From IMG/VR virus record IMGVR_UViG_2718217863_000001: DNA of 42,681 nt; one strand, written 5' to 3'. The notes beneath the pieces were generated by a model. It did no database searches. It saw nothing but the letters and a program-made list of their open reading frames with translations, and was not told the origin of the DNA. Both the position numbers and the translations under genes were made by a program. This DNA is from a virus. Its lineage: Duplodnaviria > Heunggongvirae > Uroviricota > Caudoviricetes. This document shows positions 12,843 to 36,126 of this stretch, one piece after another (the stretch's first letter is position 1; every line of letters begins with the position of its first letter).

Positions 12843-13190
12843 TCAACTCACAGGAATAGTCAGTGACAGGGTTTTGCCGGTGTCCCGGGTCTCGCCGGTC
12901 AGCTCAACAATCATCTGACCGTTAAACTGACGTTCGACCGTCAGCGAGCTGATGCTGATGCGCGGCTCCCACTTCAGCAGCGCCATATAACAGGCGCACA
13001 TAATTTGCAGCCTCAGCGCGTCGGTCTGCGGCATATCAATCAGGGAGAACAGCAGCGAGCCATAATCGCGGCGCATCACGCGAGAGCCGACTGGCGTTCG
13101 CAAAATATCGCCACAGCTCTGACGGATGTGATCGGCGTCAGTGATGGCGAGCCCGGTCTCCCTGTTCATACCGATATAACGGGTCGTCAT
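12843..13190 (-). CDS. W: Baseplate assembly protein W (gp25-like)
   Basis: 115 aa; synteny. Confidence 0.85.
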   Translation of the reverse strand: MTTRYIGMNRETGLAITDADHIRQSCGDILRTPVGSRVMRRDYGSLLFSLIDMPQTDALRLQIMCACYMALLKWEPRISISSLTVERQFNGQMIVELTGETRDTGKTLSLTIPVS

Positions 13191-13828
13191 TTCGTGCCCT
13201 CCGTCCAGGCTCCACCCCTTTGCACACCGCCGTGACCGTGGTTGTCGACCTGAACGCCGTTTGATTTAAACGTACCGTCGATGTGTTCGATGTTTCCGCG
13301 CATGGTGCCGCCTTGTTGCACCTCAAGCGTCGCCGTCGTCAGTTTGTTGGTGCAGACCACTTCCGGGGTTTCGAGGGTGATGCGGGTCTCGGCTTTCACC
13401 GTCACCAGCGGTACCGTCGCGGTGATGGAATCCGACGCCGTAACATCTGCGGTTTTAATGCCGCTCACAGTCAGTGCGCCGGTCTCCGGCTCGTACTCGA
13501 TAACAGCCCCATCAGGAAAGGTGATGTGAAATGCATCAGCCGATGCCGACGGCCCGGGGTGGTCATCGGAGAAAATACCGGGCAACACAAAAGCGGTGTC
13601 GAGCTCACCACCGACGGCCAGCAGTAAAACCTGCTCACCCGCAGACGGAGCCCACCAGACACGTGAGCGACCGGCGCGCGTAGTCAGCCACTGAAGCCAG
13701 TCGGTAACAATGCCGCCAGTCTGGACGCGACAGCGCCCGTCATCGAGGTCAACTTCGACGACGACGCCGGTGCGTATCAGGTTGCGAAGGAGGCGTGAAA
13801 TTTCTTGTATACGTGATAATGTTGTCAT
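13187..13828 (-). CDS. V: Baseplate spike/assembly protein V
   Basis: 213 aa from MTTLSRIQEISRL; strong similarity to remembered P2 gpV; start chosen over upstream 13864 because of the promoter element. Confidence 0.8.
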   Translation of the reverse strand: MTTLSRIQEISRLLRNLIRTGVVVEVDLDDGRCRVQTGGIVTDWLQWLTTRAGRSRVWWAPSAGEQVLLLAVGGELDTAFVLPGIFSDDHPGPSASADAFHITFPDGAVIEYEPETGALTVSGIKTADVTASDSITATVPLVTVKAETRITLETPEVVCTNKLTTATLEVQQGGTMRGNIEHIDGTFKSNGVQVDNHGHGGVQRGGAWTEGTK

Positions 13829-13875: not shown

Positions 13876-13893
13876 TGTACCTTCGCTAGCACA
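13876..13893 (-). promoter_or_regulatory. Candidate Ogr/B-dependent late promoter element (TGT-N12-ACA) for the V operon
   Basis: Palindromic TGTaccttcgctagcACA about 50 bp upstream of the V start. Confidence 0.45.
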
Positions 13894-13943
13894 ACTTGTA
13901 GGCGGTTTTTATCGATATAAGTCTAAAAAAATGGATACAAAAA

Positions 13944-15029
13944 ATGGGAAACTCCAAACGCATTGCTTTTAGAATAGTTATTACGCTCAACAACAACTCA
14001 GCAACCGTCGTACCTGAATGTCATAATTTAAAATATAAGTTCTCCAGAAATCACACTGACAAACTAGAAATCACTGGAGATACCATCACAATATCCGGTA
14101 GCCGTTCTGGAAAGCCTAATCTCGATGAAATATTCACCAATAATCAAAGCGAGGTTTATTTTCAGGTAATTAAATCATATATTTATTACTGCGTCGCGAA
14201 TGGCAACATATTTAAAATATTGAAAATAGAATGTCATAATAACGACGACGCCATCGATAAAGTATACTCTGGTGATGAGATACGAAATCTCAACGTGTCA
14301 AACAATGCACCAAATATAAGAAAGATAAACAAGGCAAAAGCGGCAATAATTTTTGAGGCCACGCCTGAAAGTAATAAATACCTGTACGCTATGAGCACAT
14401 TAATCCGTTCACTTTGTAGTGACGACAATAACGACATTTTCGAAAAAATATGGAAGTCCTATAACTCAATTTACCGAGTCATCAGCAATGAAAAGCAAGA
14501 GGTTGAATGTCTTAATGAAATGGGGAGGGAGATAATAAGCAACCCTGCAAACTACCCTCTTTCTGTAAATGCCGCTCAAGCCATTTCGGGTAATGATATA
14601 TCGGATTCCACTCGGTGGTGGAGGATGTTAGAGAATAAATTCATCATACGAGGAAATAAAAAAACTCGAGAAAATAATTTCTCTACCTTCCTTACTCAAT
14701 ATCAAGACTTTCGATTAAATGAAGTATCTCAGAGGAACGTTGATATTGAAAAAAACTTTTGGACCAACTCCAACCTAAAAACCACAACAATAAATGACAT
14801 TGCAAATAAAATAAATAACAACCAAAGAAATGATGCCGAAGTAGTTGATGCAATTTGTAATCATTACGCCTACTTCCTTAGAAATAAAACCCTGCATGGA
14901 GATCAAACAGATCATTCTTTCAGGTTCATACCCTATAACAAAGAAGAGAAAACATTGAAATTCACCTCGAATATTTTGTTTTTACTGGTGTGCGACCTGA
15001 TAAATAGCCACACACTCCAGACAAGTTAA
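13944..15029 (+). CDS. Orphan 361-aa AT-rich moron protein of unknown function (candidate defence/abortive-infection gene; possible HEPN-like Rx4H motif)
   Basis: Long ORF on the strand opposite all flanking late genes; Asn/Lys/Ile-rich composition unlike neighbours; sits at the V/S junction where P2 carries an accessory ORF; motif RNKTLH near C-terminus. Confidence 0.7.
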   Translation: MGNSKRIAFRIVITLNNNSATVVPECHNLKYKFSRNHTDKLEITGDTITISGSRSGKPNLDEIFTNNQSEVYFQVIKSYIYYCVANGNIFKILKIECHNNDDAIDKVYSGDEIRNLNVSNNAPNIRKINKAKAAIIFEATPESNKYLYAMSTLIRSLCSDDNNDIFEKIWKSYNSIYRVISNEKQEVECLNEMGREIISNPANYPLSVNAAQAISGNDISDSTRWWRMLENKFIIRGNKKTRENNFSTFLTQYQDFRLNEVSQRNVDIEKNFWTNSNLKTTTINDIANKINNNQRNDAEVVDAICNHYAYFLRNKTLHGDQTDHSFRFIPYNKEEKTLKFTSNILFLLVCDLINSHTLQTS

Positions 15030-15034
15030 ATTGA

Positions 15035-15484
15035 TTAGATATCGAAGCCCTTGGCTATTATAACTTCAATAATAGCCAAGTCGTCACTCTGGAAACCTAA
15101 CAATGGTCGGGCATCATACTGTACCGGCGTACTGTTTCGCCCGGGCTTATCCTTGAGGCCGTACTGATGCACATTCGCCATCCGTTGTACTTTACCGGTA
15201 AATTCCACGACCGCCGCGTCATTCCCCGCCGTAGCTTTCATAAAGCGACTGGTGCGGAGTTTGGCGAACATTTCCCGCTTAACCCGGCCTTTTTTGGCTT
15301 TTACCGGCTGGCGTTTTCGGGCGGCGTAAGGTGTCCCGTCCGGGGCTTTCTGCGTTTTAATCCGGCGCTGTTGACGGGCTCGCAGGGTCTTCGCGATATC
15401 TGCGGCCATTCTGCGACGGGCAGCAGGTGACAGCGCCGCTATCAGCCCCGCGAGCTTATCGTCAAAGGGTTTAAAGTCATTCAT
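15035..15484 (-). CDS. S: Tail completion protein S
   Basis: 149 aa; synteny R-S. Confidence 0.8.
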   Translation of the reverse strand: MNDFKPFDDKLAGLIAALSPAARRRMAADIAKTLRARQQRRIKTQKAPDGTPYAARKRQPVKAKKGRVKREMFAKLRTSRFMKATAGNDAAVVEFTGKVQRMANVHQYGLKDKPGRNSTPVQYDARPLLGFQSDDLAIIEVIIAKGFDI

Positions 15485-16349: not shown

Positions 16350-16441
16350 TGTTCACTGCGTATTACCGTGAAGGAGATCGGTGAGTAACATCGATGGAGA
16401 TCGGTTCGTGTCACTTTCACAGAACCGTTTTTAAATTACCT

Positions 16442-17191
16442 TCACTGATCTCCTTCGGTCAACGGAGATTGTATTTTCCGCATTGATTCTCCTTTAAGTT
16501 CGATCTTGATACTGCCATGAACCAGTCGATCTAGGATGGCATCCGCATGTGTGGAGTCTCCGATCATTTTGTACCAGTTTTCCACCGGCAACTGGCTCAC
16601 TACGATGATTGAGCCTCGTTGGTACATCAGATCCACTATTTCCAGCAGGTCGCTACGCTGTTCTGATGAGAGAGGTTCCAGCCCCCAGTCATCCAGAAGC
16701 AGCAGATCGCTATTATTCAGCCTGGTCAAAAGTTTGCTGTATCTTCCATCAGCATGCCCCTGATAGCACTGTTCCATCAGCGCTTTAAGGCGATAATAGT
16801 AGACCTTGTATCCCTGTCGGCAGGCATTATGACCAAGTGCACATGCCAGGAACGTTTTACCGCTGCCGGTGGCCCCGGTCAGTAAAATATTTTGTTTCAG
16901 GGTTAACCAGTTTCCCTGACTGAGTGAACGGATGAGGGCCCTGTCCAGCCCTCTATTGTTACGATAATCCAGCTTTGATAACTCAGCATTAAGTCTGAAC
17001 CGTGCATGTTTGATCAGACGCTCTGCCTTCCTGTTTTCACGGCAGGTTAGTTCTTCTGCTGTCAGTAATGACAGGCGTTCTTCGAAGCCCAGCTCCTGGT
17101 ATGTGCCCGGCTGAGCAAGTTGCTTTTTAAGCGCATCACGGAAGCCGGTGAGTTTAAGTGCGGTCAGTTGTTCGTAAAGATGATTCATCAT
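16442..17191 (-). CDS. istB: IS21-family helper ATPase IstB
   Basis: 249 aa; Walker A GATGSGKT; IstB-like. Confidence 0.9.
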   Translation of the reverse strand: MMNHLYEQLTALKLTGFRDALKKQLAQPGTYQELGFEERLSLLTAEELTCRENRKAERLIKHARFRLNAELSKLDYRNNRGLDRALIRSLSQGNWLTLKQNILLTGATGSGKTFLACALGHNACRQGYKVYYYRLKALMEQCYQGHADGRYSKLLTRLNNSDLLLLDDWGLEPLSSEQRSDLLEIVDLMYQRGSIIVVSQLPVENWYKMIGDSTHADAILDRLVHGSIKIELKGESMRKIQSPLTEGDQ

Positions 17192-17202
17192 TGGATCCCG
17201 TA

Positions 17203-18744
17203 TCAGTGGTAATACTCACTGCCGCGTACGTTTTCGTGTTCCATCGTGGATAACAGATCTGGTTTTGGATCCTGAACAGGTTGTTTATCCAGACCTTTTT
17301 CCAGGATCGATTTAATACCTGACAGACGCCATACCTTTGTTTTCAGAGCTCTTGCACATGCTGCATTAAGTCTGGCTTTACTGTATTTTTTATGAAGGTT
17401 CAGGAGTCCAAGGCAGAAGCGATAGCTTTGTTCCGGATGTGGACGAGAGTTCAGTATATGAAGCACATAACTATGAGTTTCACTGCCTATGTGCCCCGCC
17501 CATTCCAGAAGACGCTCTGGCGTCCAGGTGGCATGCTGTCGATGAGCTTCAGGCATGTGCTCGTTGCGGGTACTGTAGCCATAAGTACGCTTGCGCGGGT
17601 GCACAGCAACCTCCTGCCCCTGATTGAAGAGTCTTACCAGTTCTCCGGAGATCCATGCTTCCAGTTGCTGGCCTAACAGCGAACATGGAACCGAGTAGTA
17701 ATGTTTGTCGATTTCCACGTGGTAATCGGCATGAACTCTGACTTTCTTCACCAGGGTGTAACTGTAACTGGCTTCAGGAAGAGGCTTCAGTGCGGGTTTA
17801 TCAAGCTGGATGAAGAGTTCTGCACGTGAATAACCCAACTTCTGCATTATTTTGTTATTCAGTCTTTCCAGCAACTCCCGAATGCGCTGATTAAGCGATG
17901 CAAGGCTGTAGAAGATCTCATGCCTGATTCGGGCCATGATCCAGCGTTCAACAACCTGAACGCCAACTTCAGCTTTGGCTTTATCTTTCGGTTTACGTGG
18001 CCGCGCAGGCAAAACTGCGACATTATAATGCTCAAGCATCTGCTGGTAGGTAGGGTTAACGTCAGGATCATACTTACATGCCCTGGATGTGGCGCTTTTC
18101 AGATTGTCCGGAACAACAAGTTCAGGAACGCCACCCAACCACTGGAAGCAGCGAACATGACTCATCACCCAGTCTTCAAGCTGCTGAGACCAGGTGGCCT
18201 CTGCCCATGTGTAACTTGATGCCCCGAGAACAGCTACGATGACCTGAGCAGTTCTTATTTCTCCGGTCTCAGGGTCGGTAACGCCAACGGTAGGTCCACA
18301 GTAATCAACGAAAAGTTTTTCGCCAGCTTTATGTACCTGACGCATTGATGGTGAAGTGGTTTTGAGCCATTCACGGTACATCCGGCAGTAATGGTTATAG
18401 CTGTAAAAACCGCCTGGATTACGCTCACAGTATTCTTCCCAGAGTAGCTGCAGCGTCACGCATTTATTACGCAGTTCCCGGTGTACTGTAGCCCAGTCAG
18501 GCAGAGAGTGCTTCTTCATCTTAACCTGGGTCTGAAGGAACGCATGTTTTAGTTTTGTATCATCCCATCCTGTAGGTAAGGGCCACTGCTTTATGCCAAG
18601 TTGAGCCGCCCGATTAGCATATCTGGATACAACGGAAGGGGAGATTGCAAGACTACGACCAATTTGTCGATGGCTGAGTCCAACACCGTATTTAAGCCTA
18701 AGAATTTCTTTAAGTTTTCTCATAGAAATTGGAACTGTTGGCAT
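17203..18744 (-). CDS. istA: IS21-family transposase IstA
   Basis: 513 aa; N-terminal HTH, DDE integrase core; upstream of istB. Confidence 0.9.
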   Translation of the reverse strand: MPTVPISMRKLKEILRLKYGVGLSHRQIGRSLAISPSVVSRYANRAAQLGIKQWPLPTGWDDTKLKHAFLQTQVKMKKHSLPDWATVHRELRNKCVTLQLLWEEYCERNPGGFYSYNHYCRMYREWLKTTSPSMRQVHKAGEKLFVDYCGPTVGVTDPETGEIRTAQVIVAVLGASSYTWAEATWSQQLEDWVMSHVRCFQWLGGVPELVVPDNLKSATSRACKYDPDVNPTYQQMLEHYNVAVLPARPRKPKDKAKAEVGVQVVERWIMARIRHEIFYSLASLNQRIRELLERLNNKIMQKLGYSRAELFIQLDKPALKPLPEASYSYTLVKKVRVHADYHVEIDKHYYSVPCSLLGQQLEAWISGELVRLFNQGQEVAVHPRKRTYGYSTRNEHMPEAHRQHATWTPERLLEWAGHIGSETHSYVLHILNSRPHPEQSYRFCLGLLNLHKKYSKARLNAACARALKTKVWRLSGIKSILEKGLDKQPVQDPKPDLLSTMEHENVRGSEYYH

Positions 18745-18943
18745 AGGTATCCTTTACCGGAATGGCAAAAGATACAGATCAACACACCTGTGAAGTTCCA
18801 ATAACATTGATGGAGATCACTGAATAACAAAATGAGTCAAAAGTGATCTCCATCGATGTTATTCAGCGATCTGTTCAAATGTTATTACCCGATCTCGATG
18901 GAAGTTATTGAGTGATCTCCTTTCATGAAAATACGCAGTTCAC

Positions 18944-26799: not shown

Positions 26800-28017
26800 T
26801 TAATTAGCTTTATCAAGGCGTCCCCCCACCACCATCCGCTTGTAATTTATTGCGAACAACTTAAGTTTTTCAGGGAACTTTGACGCCAAAATTATTGACT
26901 TTCTGTCTACATATGAATAAAAGGGCATTGATATCAAAATAGTTATCATCGAAGTTAAGATAAATGTAACAAACGCACCAACGGACGGCGACGCAATGTT
27001 TTTGTAAACCCAAAAACCAACTATAGATATAACAAATGGATGAAGCAAGTATATTGAAAATGACAACCTCCCAATAAACAAGACTACATTTTTGCTCATC
27101 CCCCTTAAACATCTCCCATTCACAAAGACAGAAGCAATAATCAAAAAAGAACCAAGCGATATTGTAAACTCTGGCCATTGTATTAATATATCGCATTGAA
27201 ACTGAAGGTAGAGGTAAAATTCAACCAGATCTTTATACGCAGTGCTCGCCGGTGCATACCCAACAAGATAAAGGCCAATAAACAACATAAGAAGCGATAC
27301 AAGCTTTCTTAACCGTCCATTATTTTCACTTATCTCGAAAGTTGATAAAAACACACCAGAAAGGAAAAGCCCATAATAAATTATATTAATACTACCAGAC
27401 AAAAACATACAAACAAATGAAATAAATGACAACCAGCGAAGAATGGTCTTGTTCTCACCAAACAGAGATATAAATCCGTATACCAATATAGAACCAAAAA
27501 ACTCAATACTAATAGTCCACAGAACATAGTTATACTTTATATTACCAAAAAGCATAGCGCCAAATGAAGCATCCCATATGGCTGACACTATATTCCCATC
27601 AAAACTAAACGCAGTCATTAACGGCATTGATGCAGCGGGGCTATCCTTATCCGGAAAAAAGCCCAACAACATTATAAAATAGCAAATAATCACAGATGCT
27701 GCTACGGGAACCCCAAGCCTAATGTATCTCTTCAATGCTGATGCTTGTATATAGCGTATTTCGTTATTATTTTTTTGGCAACTCAGTGACAAAACCAACC
27801 CGCTCAAAACAAAGAATAAGCTAACAGCAGATCCCCCCTTATAGAAAAAAGTAAAAGGGCTATTAAATAAATTTTCTTGCCACTTGCTATCAAACATACT
27901 GCCAGAATGCACCGAAGGTATAAACATTAAAAATGAATGCGATAAAACGACAGCCATGGCTGCCACACCTCTTATCCCATCAAAGATTTTTACATTATTT
28001 CTCTCATTATCACTCAT
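26800..28017 (-). CDS. Acyltransferase family 3 integral membrane protein (OafA/Oac-like O-acetyltransferase), cargo gene
   Basis: 405 aa, about 10 predicted TM helices; N-terminal GIRGVAAMAVVLSH motif characteristic of acyltransferase-3 family; very AT-rich. Confidence 0.8.
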   Translation of the reverse strand: MSDNERNNVKIFDGIRGVAAMAVVLSHSFLMFIPSVHSGSMFDSKWQENLFNSPFTFFYKGGSAVSLFFVLSGLVLSLSCQKNNNEIRYIQASALKRYIRLGVPVAASVIICYFIMLLGFFPDKDSPAASMPLMTAFSFDGNIVSAIWDASFGAMLFGNIKYNYVLWTISIEFFGSILVYGFISLFGENKTILRWLSFISFVCMFLSGSINIIYYGLFLSGVFLSTFEISENNGRLRKLVSLLMLFIGLYLVGYAPASTAYKDLVEFYLYLQFQCDILIQWPEFTISLGSFLIIASVFVNGRCLRGMSKNVVLFIGRLSFSIYLLHPFVISIVGFWVYKNIASPSVGAFVTFILTSMITILISMPFYSYVDRKSIILASKFPEKLKLFAINYKRMVVGGRLDKAN

Positions 28018-34652: not shown

Positions 34653-34662
34653 CCCCATTAAG

Positions 34663-36126
34663 TCATTTGCCGAGCATCTCTCTTAAATCTTGAGCCCAAT
34701 GCGTATCGTCAGATTGGATCGTTCCTTCAACATCAGTAAGCAGTTTTTGCTCAAGAATTGTCTCGGCATTTCGACTCTGGCTAAAGTATCTTACCGTTTC
34801 GGCAAAGTCCCAATTCTCATCTGCAAGCAGGCGCGGCTGGAAAGAATGACAGTAGATTGCAGCTATATCTTTACCCATAAAGTCAAAATCAGAAATCAAT
34901 TCGCAAATTTTCATATCACGTGCAAATTCGATCTGAGGGCCATGCAAGGTTTCATATCCAATATGAATTATTGTTGATTCTCCAATCGGAGCCTGCTTTA
35001 CAGCCTGAACAAGTACCCTTTTTATATCTTTTGCCTTTTTATCGACAGACTCATCAGCGAGACAAATCCATTTTGCGCAGAAAGGCATTTCTATCTCATC
35101 AATGAATACATTTATTGTACTAAGTTCATCATTGCTAAAAGTGCATAACTTTGCGTTGCAAACCATTGTATAACTTCCAAACGGGTCATACTGGTCATCT
35201 AATAAGGAATTTAATTGAGGAGAAGGATATTTCACATGCCACTTTCTTAAGTGGTTATCCACCCGTTCCATATCAATTAAGTTAGCCTGAACCAAAATAT
35301 CATCGCTCTCACATACTGCAATCTTACCTTTCACAAGATGATCAGAGCCGTAAATTTTTGCTACAGCACCGAGAAACACATCGATACGCGTTTTTACTAT
35401 TTCAGTTTTGAAAATCACATCAAAAAAAACTGGCTTATGGTATCGAGTAATCAATGGTCGAGCCATTTCCCACCGCTTCAACCACTCCGCCCTTTCTTCT
35501 TCTGAGTACTGAGTCACCTTTGCTAATCGCTTGCACTCAACATAAAAAATATCAGTGCCTTTAACAACTTTGAGGTCTGGTGTTTTATGAGCTCCTGTTT
35601 CTGGAATGAACTCAACTTCCCAGCCATTTTTCAAATAGCAGATAGCCACAACCAACTCAAACAAAATGGAATCAGGCTGGTTGATTGTCTTAACAAGCAA
35701 GTCATTTAATTTGGATTCAATACCTTTGACCTGCTTCAACTTTTCGCTATGTTCACCGATAACTGCGAAAAAATGCCAAATTCTTGACGACTGAGCTGGC
35801 TCATCTACTGTTGGGCGATCAGCCAAAGATTCAACTAAGTACAAATACCATGCAATCCAGTCATCATAGAATGCCAGGCGTGCATCTTTCTCATGGAAAG
35901 AAACGTCAGATTTTCCTGTGAAAAGGCGCTCCGACATTTCGCGGAAGTAAGCCAAAACCGCCCCACGACGCTCAACCCATTTATCTTCACCCATTACATC
36001 AATAAACCAACGGTATGCTGTTTTTATCTCTTTGACTAATGGGGCATCATGTCTATGATTGAAGCGTTCAAAAAATGCAGCATACTCATCTTCAACACTC
36101 TGATTTTTGGTATTTTTTTCACCCAT
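34663..36126 (-). CDS. Orphan 487-aa protein with PD-(D/E)xK nuclease-like core (candidate defence nuclease); alternative start 36159
   Basis: Motif TPDLKVV-x9-YVECKRL (D-x13-ExK) after hydrophobic strand LFELVVAICYL; GGTGGA RBS 7 nt before ATG at 36126; lies between int and attR; AT-richer than backbone. Confidence 0.7.
   Translation of the reverse strand: MGEKNTKNQSVEDEYAAFFERFNHRHDAPLVKEIKTAYRWFIDVMGEDKWVERRGAVLAYFREMSERLFTGKSDVSFHEKDARLAFYDDWIAWYLYLVESLADRPTVDEPAQSSRIWHFFAVIGEHSEKLKQVKGIESKLNDLLVKTINQPDSILFELVVAICYLKNGWEVEFIPETGAHKTPDLKVVKGTDIFYVECKRLAKVTQYSEEERAEWLKRWEMARPLITRYHKPVFFDVIFKTEIVKTRIDVFLGAVAKIYGSDHLVKGKIAVCESDDILVQANLIDMERVDNHLRKWHVKYPSPQLNSLLDDQYDPFGSYTMVCNAKLCTFSNDELSTINVFIDEIEMPFCAKWICLADESVDKKAKDIKRVLVQAVKQAPIGESTIIHIGYETLHGPQIEFARDMKICELISDFDFMGKDIAAIYCHSFQPRLLADENWDFAETVRYFSQSRNAETILEQKLLTDVEGTIQSDDTHWAQDLREMLGK

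What the first reader, a model, noticed from the sequence alone, without database searches (positions are those of the whole stretch)
13944..15029. AT-rich 361-aa orphan gene on the opposite strand, inserted between late genes V and S: candidate defence/abortive-infection moron, possibly HEPN-like
This is the only long ORF in the late region read against the direction of every neighbouring structural gene. Its codon and amino-acid composition (Asn, Lys, Ile rich; roughly one third G+C by eye versus more than half in flanking genes) indicates foreign origin. It occupies the junction between the end of the O..S operon and the V operon promoter, where P2 carries a small accessory ORF. Its stop lies 5 bp from the convergent S stop. 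Near the C-terminus NHYAYFLRNKTLHGD contains an Rx4H motif of the kind that forms HEPN RNase active sites, which would fit a toxin or abortive-infection effector, but a single short motif is weak evidence. No other family signature is recognisable, so it is a candidate novel lysogen-expressed gene.
Basis: partly seen in the sequence, partly recalled or inferred. Interest (0 to 1): 0.75.

Follow-up and report, generated by a model that had tools for sequence, protein, structure and literature searches.

The report
Prophage-carried solo HEPN defence candidate
An AT-rich foreign gene sitting backwards between two tail genes of a P2-like E. coli prophage encodes an unnamed two-domain protein whose C-terminal half is very probably a HEPN ribonuclease, most likely a self-contained anti-phage "suicide" enzyme of a kind already known from other prophages.

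Summary
A 361-aa ORF lies at 13944-15029 (+). It has 36% G+C against 54-58% in the flanking genes, and sits between gpV and gpS of a P2-like prophage, where P2 carries the unrelated Orf30.

It is not an orphan. There are 17 close clusters in Enterobacterales and about 250 clusters at 50% identity. Nearly all are 340-370 aa and under purifying selection.

Pfam, NCBIfam, PHROGs and PADLOC recognise no member. The HEPN reading is nevertheless well supported:
- R313 and H318 are invariant in 120 diverse members.
- N314 and an [ED]x3[KR] motif (E167-K171) are conserved.
- In the AlphaFold model (pLDDT 87.5) Rx4H lies at the end of the penultimate helix, as in canonical HEPN.

The N-terminal 110 aa form an alpha/beta domain with no close structural relative and invariant D39 and R54.

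Homologues occur singly in the same gpV/gpS slot of four other P2-like phages, in a lambdoid prophage, an ICE, an integrative mobilisable element (IME), and next to Gabija/Lamassu, SIR2-STAND and TIR-SLATT/BREX genes. DefensePredictor (Science 2026) lists this cluster as a "predicted novel defense gene"; I found no test of it.

Best reading: an auto-inhibited solo HEPN RNase for abortive infection. It is a new family of a known kind and its function is unproven.

The parts
13944..15029 (+). Cargo gene encoding a 361-aa protein. It is identical to RefSeq WP_071940771.1, annotated 'hypothetical protein'.
   Evidence: ORF listed. It is 100% identical in 32 complete E. coli genomes. It is under purifying selection.
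13944..14273 (+). N-terminal alpha/beta domain (aa 1-110). Y31, D39, R54, Q74 and K77 are invariant or nearly so. Putative sensor or regulatory module.
14301..15008 (+). All-helical C-terminal region (aa about 120-355) containing the HEPN-like four-helix core.
14442..14456 (+). E167-K-I-W-K171, an [ED]x3[KR] motif corresponding to the upstream acidic motif of HEPN domains.
   Evidence: Across 120 members: acidic at position 167 in 103, basic at 171 in 106, W170 in 119, F166 in 115. The motif is described in PMC3710099.
14880..14897 (+). R313-N-K-T-L-H318, the Rx4H predicted RNase active-site motif.
   Evidence: R and H are present in 120 of 120 members and N314 in 100 of 120. 133 of 134 full-length relatives have Rx4H in the last 90 aa. 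The motif lies at the end of helix 297-316 and the start of a flexible loop before the last helix 333-354.
13894..13943 (+). AT-rich leader of the cargo gene, inside the inserted segment. The promoter is not identified.
   Evidence: Sequence. The sigma-70 consensus scan found nothing here. This segment is absent from empty-site relatives.
13876..13893 (.). TGT-N12-ACA dyad, the likely Ogr-type activator site of the gpV late promoter. It marks the left edge of the cargo slot.
   Evidence: It lies 48-65 bp upstream of the gpV ATG. This matches the annotated activator site upstream of V in P2 and a conserved GTTGTG half-site in relatives. The pattern alone is not enriched in the window.
13187..13828 (-). 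gpV baseplate spike gene, left flank of the slot.
   Evidence: RefSeq annotation of the identical region. tblastn matches to P2-like phages.
15035..15484 (-). gpS tail-completion gene, right flank of the slot. Its last 18 or so codons (15038-15091) are AT-rich and differ between relatives that carry different cargo.
   Evidence: Alignment of nine gpS proteins. G+C profile.
15050..15080 (.). Perfect 12-bp inverted repeat with a 7-nt loop, 21 nt downstream of the cargo stop and inside the 3' end of gpS. No T-run follows it.
   Evidence: -18 kcal/mol, z = -2.9.

Best explanation
The gene is horizontally acquired cargo in the gpS/gpV accessory slot of a P2-like prophage. It encodes a single-polypeptide HEPN ribonuclease that most likely acts as an abortive-infection or anti-phage effector for the lysogen.

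Shown:
- The gene is foreign, conserved and under purifying selection.
- It always occurs as a lone gene in cargo positions of mobile elements or in defence islands.
- Its C-terminal half has the HEPN fold and the full set of HEPN sequence hallmarks: an [ED]x3[KR] motif, and invariant R-N-x3-H at the end of the penultimate helix.
- An N-terminal alpha/beta domain with its own invariant residues (D39, R54) is packed against the helical half.

Inferred, by analogy with HepS, ApeA, DARNA/PD-T7-3, PrrC and RnlA:
- The protein is made in the lysogen in an auto-inhibited oligomeric state. It has no antitoxin gene.
- Two HEPN domains pair to form a composite metal-independent RNase site.
- The N-terminal domain, or the pocket it forms with the HEPN domain, senses a cue produced by an infecting phage.
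- Activation leads to cleavage of cellular RNA, most probably tRNA anticodon loops. This stops translation and aborts the infection.

The identity of the trigger and of the RNA target is speculative.
For: Foreign cargo:
- G+C is 0.36 against 0.54-0.58 in the flanks.
- The closest phages, PSP3 and Midge, and a 93%-identical E. coli prophage have an empty 68-bp S/V junction.
- Other relatives carry a DUF4062 protein, a RipA-family membrane protein plus another gene, or P2 Orf30 in the same slot.

Real gene and family:
- 17 close clusters and 250 representative clusters, nearly all full length.
- dN/dS is 0.27.

HEPN assignment:
- R313 and H318 are present in 120/120 members, N314 in 100/120, E/D167 in 103/120 and K/R171 in 106/120.
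- The AF2 model has pLDDT 87.5 and pTM 0.88. Rx4H lies at the end of helix 297-316, followed by a flexible loop and a final helix. This is the position described for HEPN in PMC3710099.
- hhalign against an RnlA-family profile aligns only the catalytic segment, in register (R313 to R318, H318 to H323), although not significantly.

Defence role:
- A Raoultella homologue lies between Lamassu/Gabija-like genes and HEPN_Toprim_N/putAbiC genes.
- A metagenomic homologue lies next to SIR2-STAND and putAbiC genes.
- A long form lies between ThsB_TIR-SLATT and BREX genes.
- Others lie in a lambdoid prophage moron site, an ICE, an IME, and the same gpV/gpS slot of four further P2-like viral contigs.
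- DefensePredictor Table S10 gives the cluster WP_071940771.1 a mean log-odds of 9.87, 'Predicted novel defense gene'.

Precedent for solo HEPN anticodon nucleases without an antitoxin: HepS, ApeA and DARNA.
Against: - No HEPN or defence profile in Pfam, NCBIfam, PHROGs or PADLOC matches any of 130 members scanned.
- Foldseek against the PDB gives nothing better than E = 0.3.
- No promoter was recognised upstream, and there are no expression data.
- Several E. coli alleles in the same 90% cluster are truncated to 212-277 aa, so the gene is dispensable in some lineages.
- The gene's divergence tracks that of the flanking P2 genes. Long residence in one phage lineage would also fit a phage-serving role.
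- No experiment shows RNase activity, toxicity or phage protection.
Confidence: 0.6

Rival explanations
1. The protein is a HEPN RNase toxin whose main role is addiction or stabilisation of the mobile element, or a general stress response. It would be controlled by an unrecognised antitoxin (a small RNA, a small ORF, or a host factor), with no dedicated anti-phage function.
For: - HEPN toxins are common in TA systems: HepT/MntA hits appear, and RnlA/RnlB.
- The family rides on many kinds of mobile element.
- A distant subclade has a conserved 101-aa ORF directly downstream that could be a partner.
Against: - In the window there is no room for a partner gene: 5 bp separate the stop from the gpS stop, and about 50 bp lie between the gene and the pV activator site.
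- There are no tandem repeats of the kind seen in type III antitoxin RNAs and no Rfam match.
- No conserved neighbour is seen across the contexts examined.
- Known TA HEPN toxins also act in phage defence, so this rival overlaps the main reading.
Confidence: 0.15
2. The gene serves the phage rather than the host. It would be an RNase used during the P2-like lytic cycle or in phage-satellite and phage-phage competition, for example host shut-off, interference with P4-like satellites, or counter-defence.
For: - It sits inside the late region, immediately next to the Ogr-dependent pV promoter.
- The same family occupies the same slot in five diverged P2-like lineages, and its divergence tracks the flanking genes: 97/65/63/44% against gpV at 96/~82/85/62%. 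This suggests long co-residence.
Against: - It is transcribed against the late operons.
- It is absent from the closest free-living phages PSP3 and Midge and from all 50,697 GenBank phage records.
- Homologues occur in an ICE, an IME and chromosomal defence islands with no P2 genes nearby.
- The positional analogue in P2, Orf30, is nonessential.
Confidence: 0.1
3. The protein is a catalytically inactive HEPN-like ligand-binding or regulatory protein, or the fold assignment is a helical-bundle coincidence and the conserved R and H serve another chemistry.
For: - No sequence profile of any HEPN family matches.
- Foldseek finds nothing.
- Some HEPN domains are non-catalytic, according to PMC3710099.
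Against: - Non-catalytic HEPN domains typically lose Rx4-6H. Here R and H are invariant, and the accessory N314 and the [ED]x3[KR] motif are conserved over a family at about 20% identity.
- The motif sits at the canonical structural position.
Confidence: 0.05

Closest known systems
HEPN superfamily (Anantharaman et al. 2013, PMC3710099)
   Same: - A four-helix core.
[quoted passage not shown]
- A polar residue (N) after the R.
- An upstream [ED]x3[KR] motif.
- Occurrence in defence and mobile-element contexts.
   Different: It matches no defined HEPN family profile. The helical region, about 235 aa, is roughly twice the size of a minimal HEPN domain. It carries a distinct N-terminal alpha/beta domain.
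HepS, the 'HEPN solo' abortive-infection protein of Salmonella prophage Gifsy-1 (PMC13043305)
   Same: A single prophage-encoded HEPN protein in an accessory slot, with no partner or antitoxin gene and an Rx4H motif. In HepS this arrangement gives an auto-inhibited oligomer that cleaves tRNA anticodon loops on sensing a phage protein.
ApeA (Gao et al. 2020 system; bioRxiv 10.64898/2026.01.26.701840)
   Same: A single protein with an N-terminal region of unknown homology plus a C-terminal HEPN domain that has insertions. In ApeA a ligand pocket between the N-terminal domain and the HEPN domain activates tRNA cleavage. UniRef labels one family member (P0202) 'ApeA N-terminal domain-containing protein'.
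   Different: ApeA is much larger: N-terminal domain 1-198, Mid domain 199-309, then HEPN, with catalytic R502. No Pfam ApeA_NTD1, Pfam HEPN_Apea or PADLOC ApeA hit was found in any of 130 members, including P0202.
RnlA/LsoA (RNase LS) toxins
   Same: Almost the same length (357 aa). An alpha/beta TBP-like N-terminal part plus a C-terminal HEPN domain. The motif is at nearly the same position (R318-x4-H323) with a similar local pattern, aromatic-x-aromatic...R[NH]xxFHxE. Both have a role against phage.
DARNA / PD-T7-3
   Same: A single-protein HEPN defence enzyme whose non-catalytic domain senses the infection cue and which cleaves tRNA.
   Different: The domain order is reversed (HEPN at the N-terminus, R117-H122), the protein is 456 aa, and its C-terminal domain is helical and Pds5-like. 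There is no PADLOC PD-T7-3 hit.
P2 Orf30 (positional analogue)
   Same: Same slot between the gpS stop and the pV activator site, opposite strand, nonessential accessory gene.
   Different: Not homologous: 261 aa, BLASTP E = 11. No family or defence hit.

Membership tests
HEPN superfamily | Four-helix up-down bundle core | tested here: met
HEPN superfamily | [quoted passage not shown] | tested here: met
   R313 and H318 are present in 120/120 members. They lie at the end of helix 297-316, followed by loop 318-331 and the last helix 333-354. The definition is quoted.
HEPN superfamily | Polar residue (N/D/H) immediately after the conserved R | tested here: met
   Position 314 is N in 100 of 120 members and C in 19.
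HEPN superfamily | Upstream conserved acidic residue, typically Ex3[KR], in helix 2 near the active site | tested here: inconclusive
   E167-x3-K171 is conserved: acidic in 103/120 and basic in 106/120. It lies in helix 162-180.
HEPN superfamily | Significant sequence-profile match to a described HEPN family | tested here: not met
   No Pfam, NCBIfam or PADLOC HEPN family matched any of 130 members. A profile search of PDB sequences found nothing relevant.
HEPN superfamily | Metal-independent RNase activity from a dimeric composite site | not testable with these tools
   This needs biochemistry, or at least a multimer prediction. Only monomer prediction was available.
ApeA | ApeA_NTD1 plus HEPN_Apea domains (Pfam) or a match to the PADLOC ApeA model; three-domain protein of about 550 aa or more | tested here: not met
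   No such hit in 130 members, including P0202, which UniRef labels 'ApeA N-terminal domain-containing'. The protein is 361 aa with two domains, whereas ApeA has an N-terminal, a Mid and a HEPN domain.
RnlA/LsoA RNase LS toxin-antitoxin | Homology to the RnlA domains (PF19417, PF19034, PF15935, PF18869) and an adjacent rnlB-type antitoxin gene | tested here: not met
   BLASTP gave E = 1.9. hhalign of the family profile against the RnlA family profile aligned only the 37-column motif segment, E = 0.06, probability 0.9%. There is no downstream gene: 5 bp separate the stop from the convergent gpS stop.
HepS | Standalone HEPN protein under 250 aa with no additional domain | tested here: not met
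   This protein is 361 aa and has a distinct 110-aa N-terminal domain. Direct sequence comparison was not possible because no HepS sequence was available.
Abi2/AbiD/AbiF and DARNA (PD-T7-3), PD-T4-2 | Match to the Pfam Abi_2 model or the PADLOC models for these systems | tested here: not met
   No hit at E <= 0.1 in 120 members. The only PADLOC hit for the query is HEC-01A at E = 0.16.
Anti-phage defence gene (functional class) | Recurrent location in defence islands or in variable cargo slots of mobile elements | tested here: met
   Three of the contexts with readable neighbours are defence islands. The others are prophage, ICE or IME cargo sites. The S/V slot is variable. DefensePredictor gives a log-odds of 9.87. 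The sample is small and not statistically controlled.
Anti-phage defence gene (functional class) | Measured protection against phage that depends on the catalytic residues | not testable with these tools
   The family's motifs are absent from the validated-protein tables of DefensePredictor. No paper in the library names WP_071940771.

The most novel reading that the evidence does not exclude
The roughly 250-cluster family defines a previously unnamed type of solo HEPN immune protein. Its small N-terminal alpha/beta domain, with invariant D39 and R54 and no close structural relative, would be a new kind of infection sensor or RNA-recognition module that gates the RNase. The gpS/gpV junction of P2-like phages would be a fourth, largely overlooked defence hotspot, where cassettes are swapped together with the last 18 or so codons of gpS.
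Probability: 0.4. Interest if true: 0.6.

Novelty: new member of a known kind. Interest (0 to 1): 0.45.

Why it matters
If confirmed, this adds a widespread and so far unannotated HEPN family to the growing set of single-protein, antitoxin-free anticodon-nuclease-type defences (HepS, ApeA, DARNA). It comes with a new regulatory domain whose trigger could be mapped.

It would also give a function to the long-known but unexplained orf30 position of P2-like phages. That would extend the P2 hotspot picture beyond old/tin and Z/fun.

On the practical side, current annotation resources (Pfam, NCBIfam, PADLOC, PHROGs) miss the family entirely, so a profile built from the 120-member alignment would improve defence-system annotation.

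The gene is carried by 32 of 5,426 complete E. coli genomes searched, most of those listed from human sources, and may affect susceptibility to therapeutic phages.

Tried and rejected
- **Family libraries.** Pfam, NCBIfam, PHROGs and PADLOC on the query and on 120-130 family members gave only scattered chance hits. HEC-01A at E = 0.16 and DzbB in 3 of 120 members were not pursued.
- **Phage records.** tblastn against 50,697 GenBank phage records found no match.
- **Solved structures.** Profile searches against PDB sequences found nothing relevant. Foldseek against the PDB found nothing below E = 0.3. The afdb50 library was unavailable.
- **P2 Orf30 and other S/V cargo.** These are not homologous and have no defence-model hits.
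- **RnlA.** It was considered because of its equal length, TBP-like plus HEPN architecture and motif position. It was rejected as a family assignment after BLASTP and profile-profile tests.
- **ApeA.** Membership was suggested by a UniRef label but not reproduced.
- **RNA antitoxin.** A type III or AbiF-like RNA antitoxin is not supported: there are no tandem repeats and no Rfam hit.
- **Promoter and terminator.** The consensus scan found nothing upstream of the gene. The TGT-N12-ACA pattern is not enriched in the window as a whole.
- **Insertion breakpoints.** DNA alignment of filled against empty sites was uninformative, because the flanks diverge there.
- **Related loci.** A search with the diverse alignment failed because no stretch was conserved enough. 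The close alignment worked.
- **RipA.** A literature search on 'RipA octameric membrane protein' led nowhere.
Full report
**Observation**

The window is an E. coli chromosomal segment carrying a P2-like prophage. It is 99.99% identical to strain 675SK2, apart from one IS insertion.

The ORF at 13944-15029 (+) encodes 361 aa and is identical to WP_071940771.1, annotated 'hypothetical protein'. It is flanked by gpV (13187-13828, -) and gpS (15035-15484, -). All other tail and lysis genes nearby are on the - strand.

G+C is 0.357 for the gene against 0.578 for gpV and 0.542 for gpS. GC3 is 0.38 against 0.63. The protein is rich in Asn (13.6%), Ile (10.2%) and Lys (7.2%). Its TAA stop is 5 bp from the convergent gpS stop, and RNKTLH is encoded at 14880-14897.

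**The slot**

In phage P2 the same junction holds the nonessential Orf30 (261 aa, opposite strand). It lies between the O-operon terminator and the activator site of the V promoter.

In the window a TGT-N12-ACA dyad sits at 13876-13893, 48-65 bp upstream of the gpV ATG. Its GTTGTG half-site is conserved in relatives whose junction is empty. The cargo begins just beyond it.

The closest sequenced phages, PSP3 and Midge, and a 93%-identical E. coli prophage have only 68 bp between S and V. Other close relatives carry a DUF4062 protein, or a RipA-family membrane protein plus an unrelated 358-aa protein. Yersinia phage YpM_46 carries a 786-bp opposite-strand gene of the same length and position as P2 orf30.

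P2 Orf30 is not homologous to the window protein. The last 18 or so residues of gpS differ according to which cargo is present, which suggests that cassettes are exchanged together with the 3' end of S.

The literature recognises the old/tin, Z/fun and ogr/int-proximal hotspots of P2-like phages, and mentions defence loci 'within the late genes' or 'downstream of GpL'. In what I read, the S/V junction is not singled out.

**A family, not an orphan**

A word-indexed search found 17 clusters at 51-100% identity in Escherichia, Citrobacter, Klebsiella, Enterobacter, Salmonella, Proteus, Yersinia, Pectobacterium and Raoultella. All are 'hypothetical' and none has Pfam domains.

An exhaustive profile search of 1.84 billion representatives found 250 clusters at E <= 1e-3 and 162 at E <= 1e-10. 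Nearly all are 340-370 aa and align end to end. The two-domain architecture is therefore conserved.

A few members are longer (534-537 aa), with an N-terminal extension of about 150 aa.

The gene is under purifying selection: dN/dS is 0.27 against a 97% relative, and pN is about 0.2 against a saturated pS of about 0.8 for the 63-65% relatives. All copies are AT-rich, at 0.32-0.37 G+C.

**What the protein is**

No Pfam, NCBIfam, PHROG or PADLOC model matches the query or any of about 130 members consistently.

In an alignment of 120 members sharing about 20-25% identity with the query, only four columns are invariant: D39, R54, R313 and H318. Conserved at 90% or more are Y31, F166, W170, D255, R257, Y308 and Y310.

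Around the motif the family consensus is Y-x-Y-F-x-R-N-K-x-F-H-G-E. N314 is present in 100 of 120 members. Upstream, position 167 is acidic in 103 and position 171 is basic in 106, giving an [ED]x3[KR] motif. Of 134 full-length relatives, 133 have Rx4H in the last 90 residues.

The AlphaFold2 model is confident (pLDDT 87.5, pTM 0.88). It shows an N-terminal alpha/beta domain (aa 1-110) and an all-helical region (aa 120-355). R313 lies at the end of helix 297-316, H318 at the start of a low-confidence loop (318-331), and a final helix spans 333-354.

The reference analysis of the HEPN superfamily describes exactly these features (PMC3710099):
- A polar residue after the R.
- An upstream Ex3[KR] motif.
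- Frequent flexibility in this region.

- ST0689, YutE, TTHA0636 and TT1696

Foldseek found nothing significant, and sequence profiles against PDB chains found nothing. The assignment therefore rests on the fold plus the motif set, not on sequence homology.

**The N-terminal domain**

It has no close structural relative. The nucleic-acid-binding character of the best matches is only a hint. Its invariant D39 and R54, and the highly conserved Y31, Q74 and K77, show that it is functionally essential.

**Relation to named families**

- **RnlA.** RnlA (357 aa) has TBP-like domains plus a C-terminal HEPN with R318-x4-H323 in a similar local context. BLASTP and profile-profile comparison show no significant homology. 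hhalign aligns only the 37-column catalytic segment, in register, at E = 0.06. There is also no rnlB-like neighbour.
- **ApeA.** It has an N-terminal domain, a Mid domain and a HEPN domain, and is far larger. One family member carries a UniRef label 'ApeA N-terminal domain-containing protein', but no ApeA model matches it here.
- **HepS.** Its homologues are under 250 aa with no extra domain.
- **DARNA.** It has the reverse domain order.

The protein is thus a member of the HEPN superfamily by fold and motifs, but of none of its described families.

**Context and function**

The gene is always alone.
- In Klebsiella it lies next to gpV in a degraded P2-like prophage.
- Four IMG/VR P2-like contigs carry it in the same gpV/gpS slot. 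Its identity falls faster than that of the flanks: 97/65/63/44% against gpV at 96/~82/85/62%. In one of these contigs a RipA-family membrane protein shares the slot.
- In Proteus it lies between the Q antiterminator region and the lysis cassette of a lambdoid prophage. A further relative lies near an antitermQ gene.
- In Yersinia it lies in an integrase/AlpA/MobA island next to HicAB or RES genes.
- In Salmonella it lies in an ICE.
- In Raoultella it lies between LmuB-like and Gabija-like genes on one side and ArdC-N, HEPN_Toprim_N and putAbiC genes on the other.
- A distant metagenomic member lies next to a SIR2-STAND protein and putAbiC.
- A long form lies between ThsB_TIR-SLATT genes and a BREX cluster.

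Independently, DefensePredictor (Science 2026) lists the cluster represented by WP_071940771.1 in its Table S10 for 3,000 E. coli strains. The mean log-odds is 9.87, the category is 'Predicted novel defense gene', and no HHblits or Foldseek link to known defence proteins is recorded. The family's motifs are absent from that paper's validated-protein tables, and no paper in the library names the accession.

**Mechanism proposed**

Shown:
- A foreign, conserved gene that travels alone.
- The HEPN fold, with an intact and invariant catalytic motif set.
- An essential extra N-terminal domain.
- No antitoxin gene, no repeat-type RNA antitoxin and no Rfam element nearby.

Inferred from HepS, ApeA, DARNA, PrrC and RnlA:
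- The protein is produced in the lysogen as an auto-inhibited oligomer.
- HEPN domains pair to form a composite metal-independent RNase site.
- The N-terminal domain senses an infection cue.
- Activation cleaves cellular RNA, most probably tRNA anticodon loops, and the infection is aborted.

I give about 0.85 to 'HEPN RNase', about 0.6 to the full defence statement, and about 0.35 to tRNA as the target.

**Weak points**

- No promoter was recognised and there are no expression data.
- Some E. coli alleles are truncated.
- Long residence in P2-like late regions leaves room for a phage-serving role.

**Verdict**

It is a new, unnamed family of a known kind: a solo HEPN defence or abortive-infection candidate carried by mobile elements. 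A published predictor has already flagged it as a likely defence gene, but it has not been characterised. Interest is moderate at 0.45. It would rise if the N-terminal domain proves to be a new type of sensor, or if the S/V junction proves to be a general defence hotspot.

Noticed in passing
window 16357-18937: A 2,581-bp IS21-family element (istA at 17203-18744, istB at 16442-17191) is inserted in the prophage lysB/lysC spanin region relative to strain 675SK2, with an apparent 6-bp target duplication. The prophage in this window is probably defective for lysis.
   Followed up: partly
window 15038-15091 (3' end of gpS): The last 18 or so residues of gpS are AT-rich and differ between close relatives according to which cargo, or none, occupies the S/V slot. 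This suggests that cassette exchange includes the 3' end of S.
   Followed up: partly
window 15050-15080: A perfect 12-bp inverted repeat with a 7-nt loop lies inside the gpS coding end, 21 nt past the cargo stop. The fold is -18 kcal/mol with z = -2.9. No T-run follows on either strand, so it is not a canonical terminator.
   Followed up: partly
L014 4719-6062; L015 4728-6786; L025 5223-5951; L009 940-1725: The same S/V slot in related P2-like prophages holds different cargo. These are a DUF4062 protein, a RipA-family membrane protein (seen in two lineages at 40% identity, once together with the HEPN-family gene), an unrelated 358-aa protein, and P2 Orf30. None matches PADLOC or NCBIfam defence models.
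   Followed up: partly
L016 2140-2445, L017 1739-2044, L018 1564-1869: In a distant subclade (about 22% identity to the query) a conserved 101-aa ORF follows the family gene by 80 bp on the same strand. It could be a partner or regulator and is absent from the enterobacterial copies.
   Followed up: no
P0059, P0067 (534-537 aa); L028 5632-7236: Long forms of the family carry an extra N-terminal extension of about 150 aa that looks by eye like HEAT-type repeats, plus a larger insert before the catalytic helix. One lies between ThsB_TIR-SLATT genes and a BREX cluster.
   Followed up: no
Cluster of P0001: Several E. coli and Klebsiella alleles in the same 90% clusters are shorter (212-289 aa). 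Some are flagged 'partial' in their records, so they may be truncated genes or contig-end artefacts. The 97%-identical allele in L022 ends three codons earlier than the window copy.
   Followed up: no
P0202 (Pectobacterium odoriferum, WP_044203646.1): UniRef names this family member 'ApeA N-terminal domain-containing protein', but the Pfam scan run here finds no ApeA domain in it. The source of that label is unexplained.
   Followed up: partly
window about 26800-28010 and 34662-36125: Coordinates are mapped from L001 30614-31830 and 38476-39939. The classical old/tin hotspot of this prophage, between the portal gene and gpA, holds an acyltransferase-family gene, a small hypothetical gene and a DinI pseudogene rather than a known defence system. 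A 487-aa hypothetical gene sits just outside the integrase.
   Followed up: no
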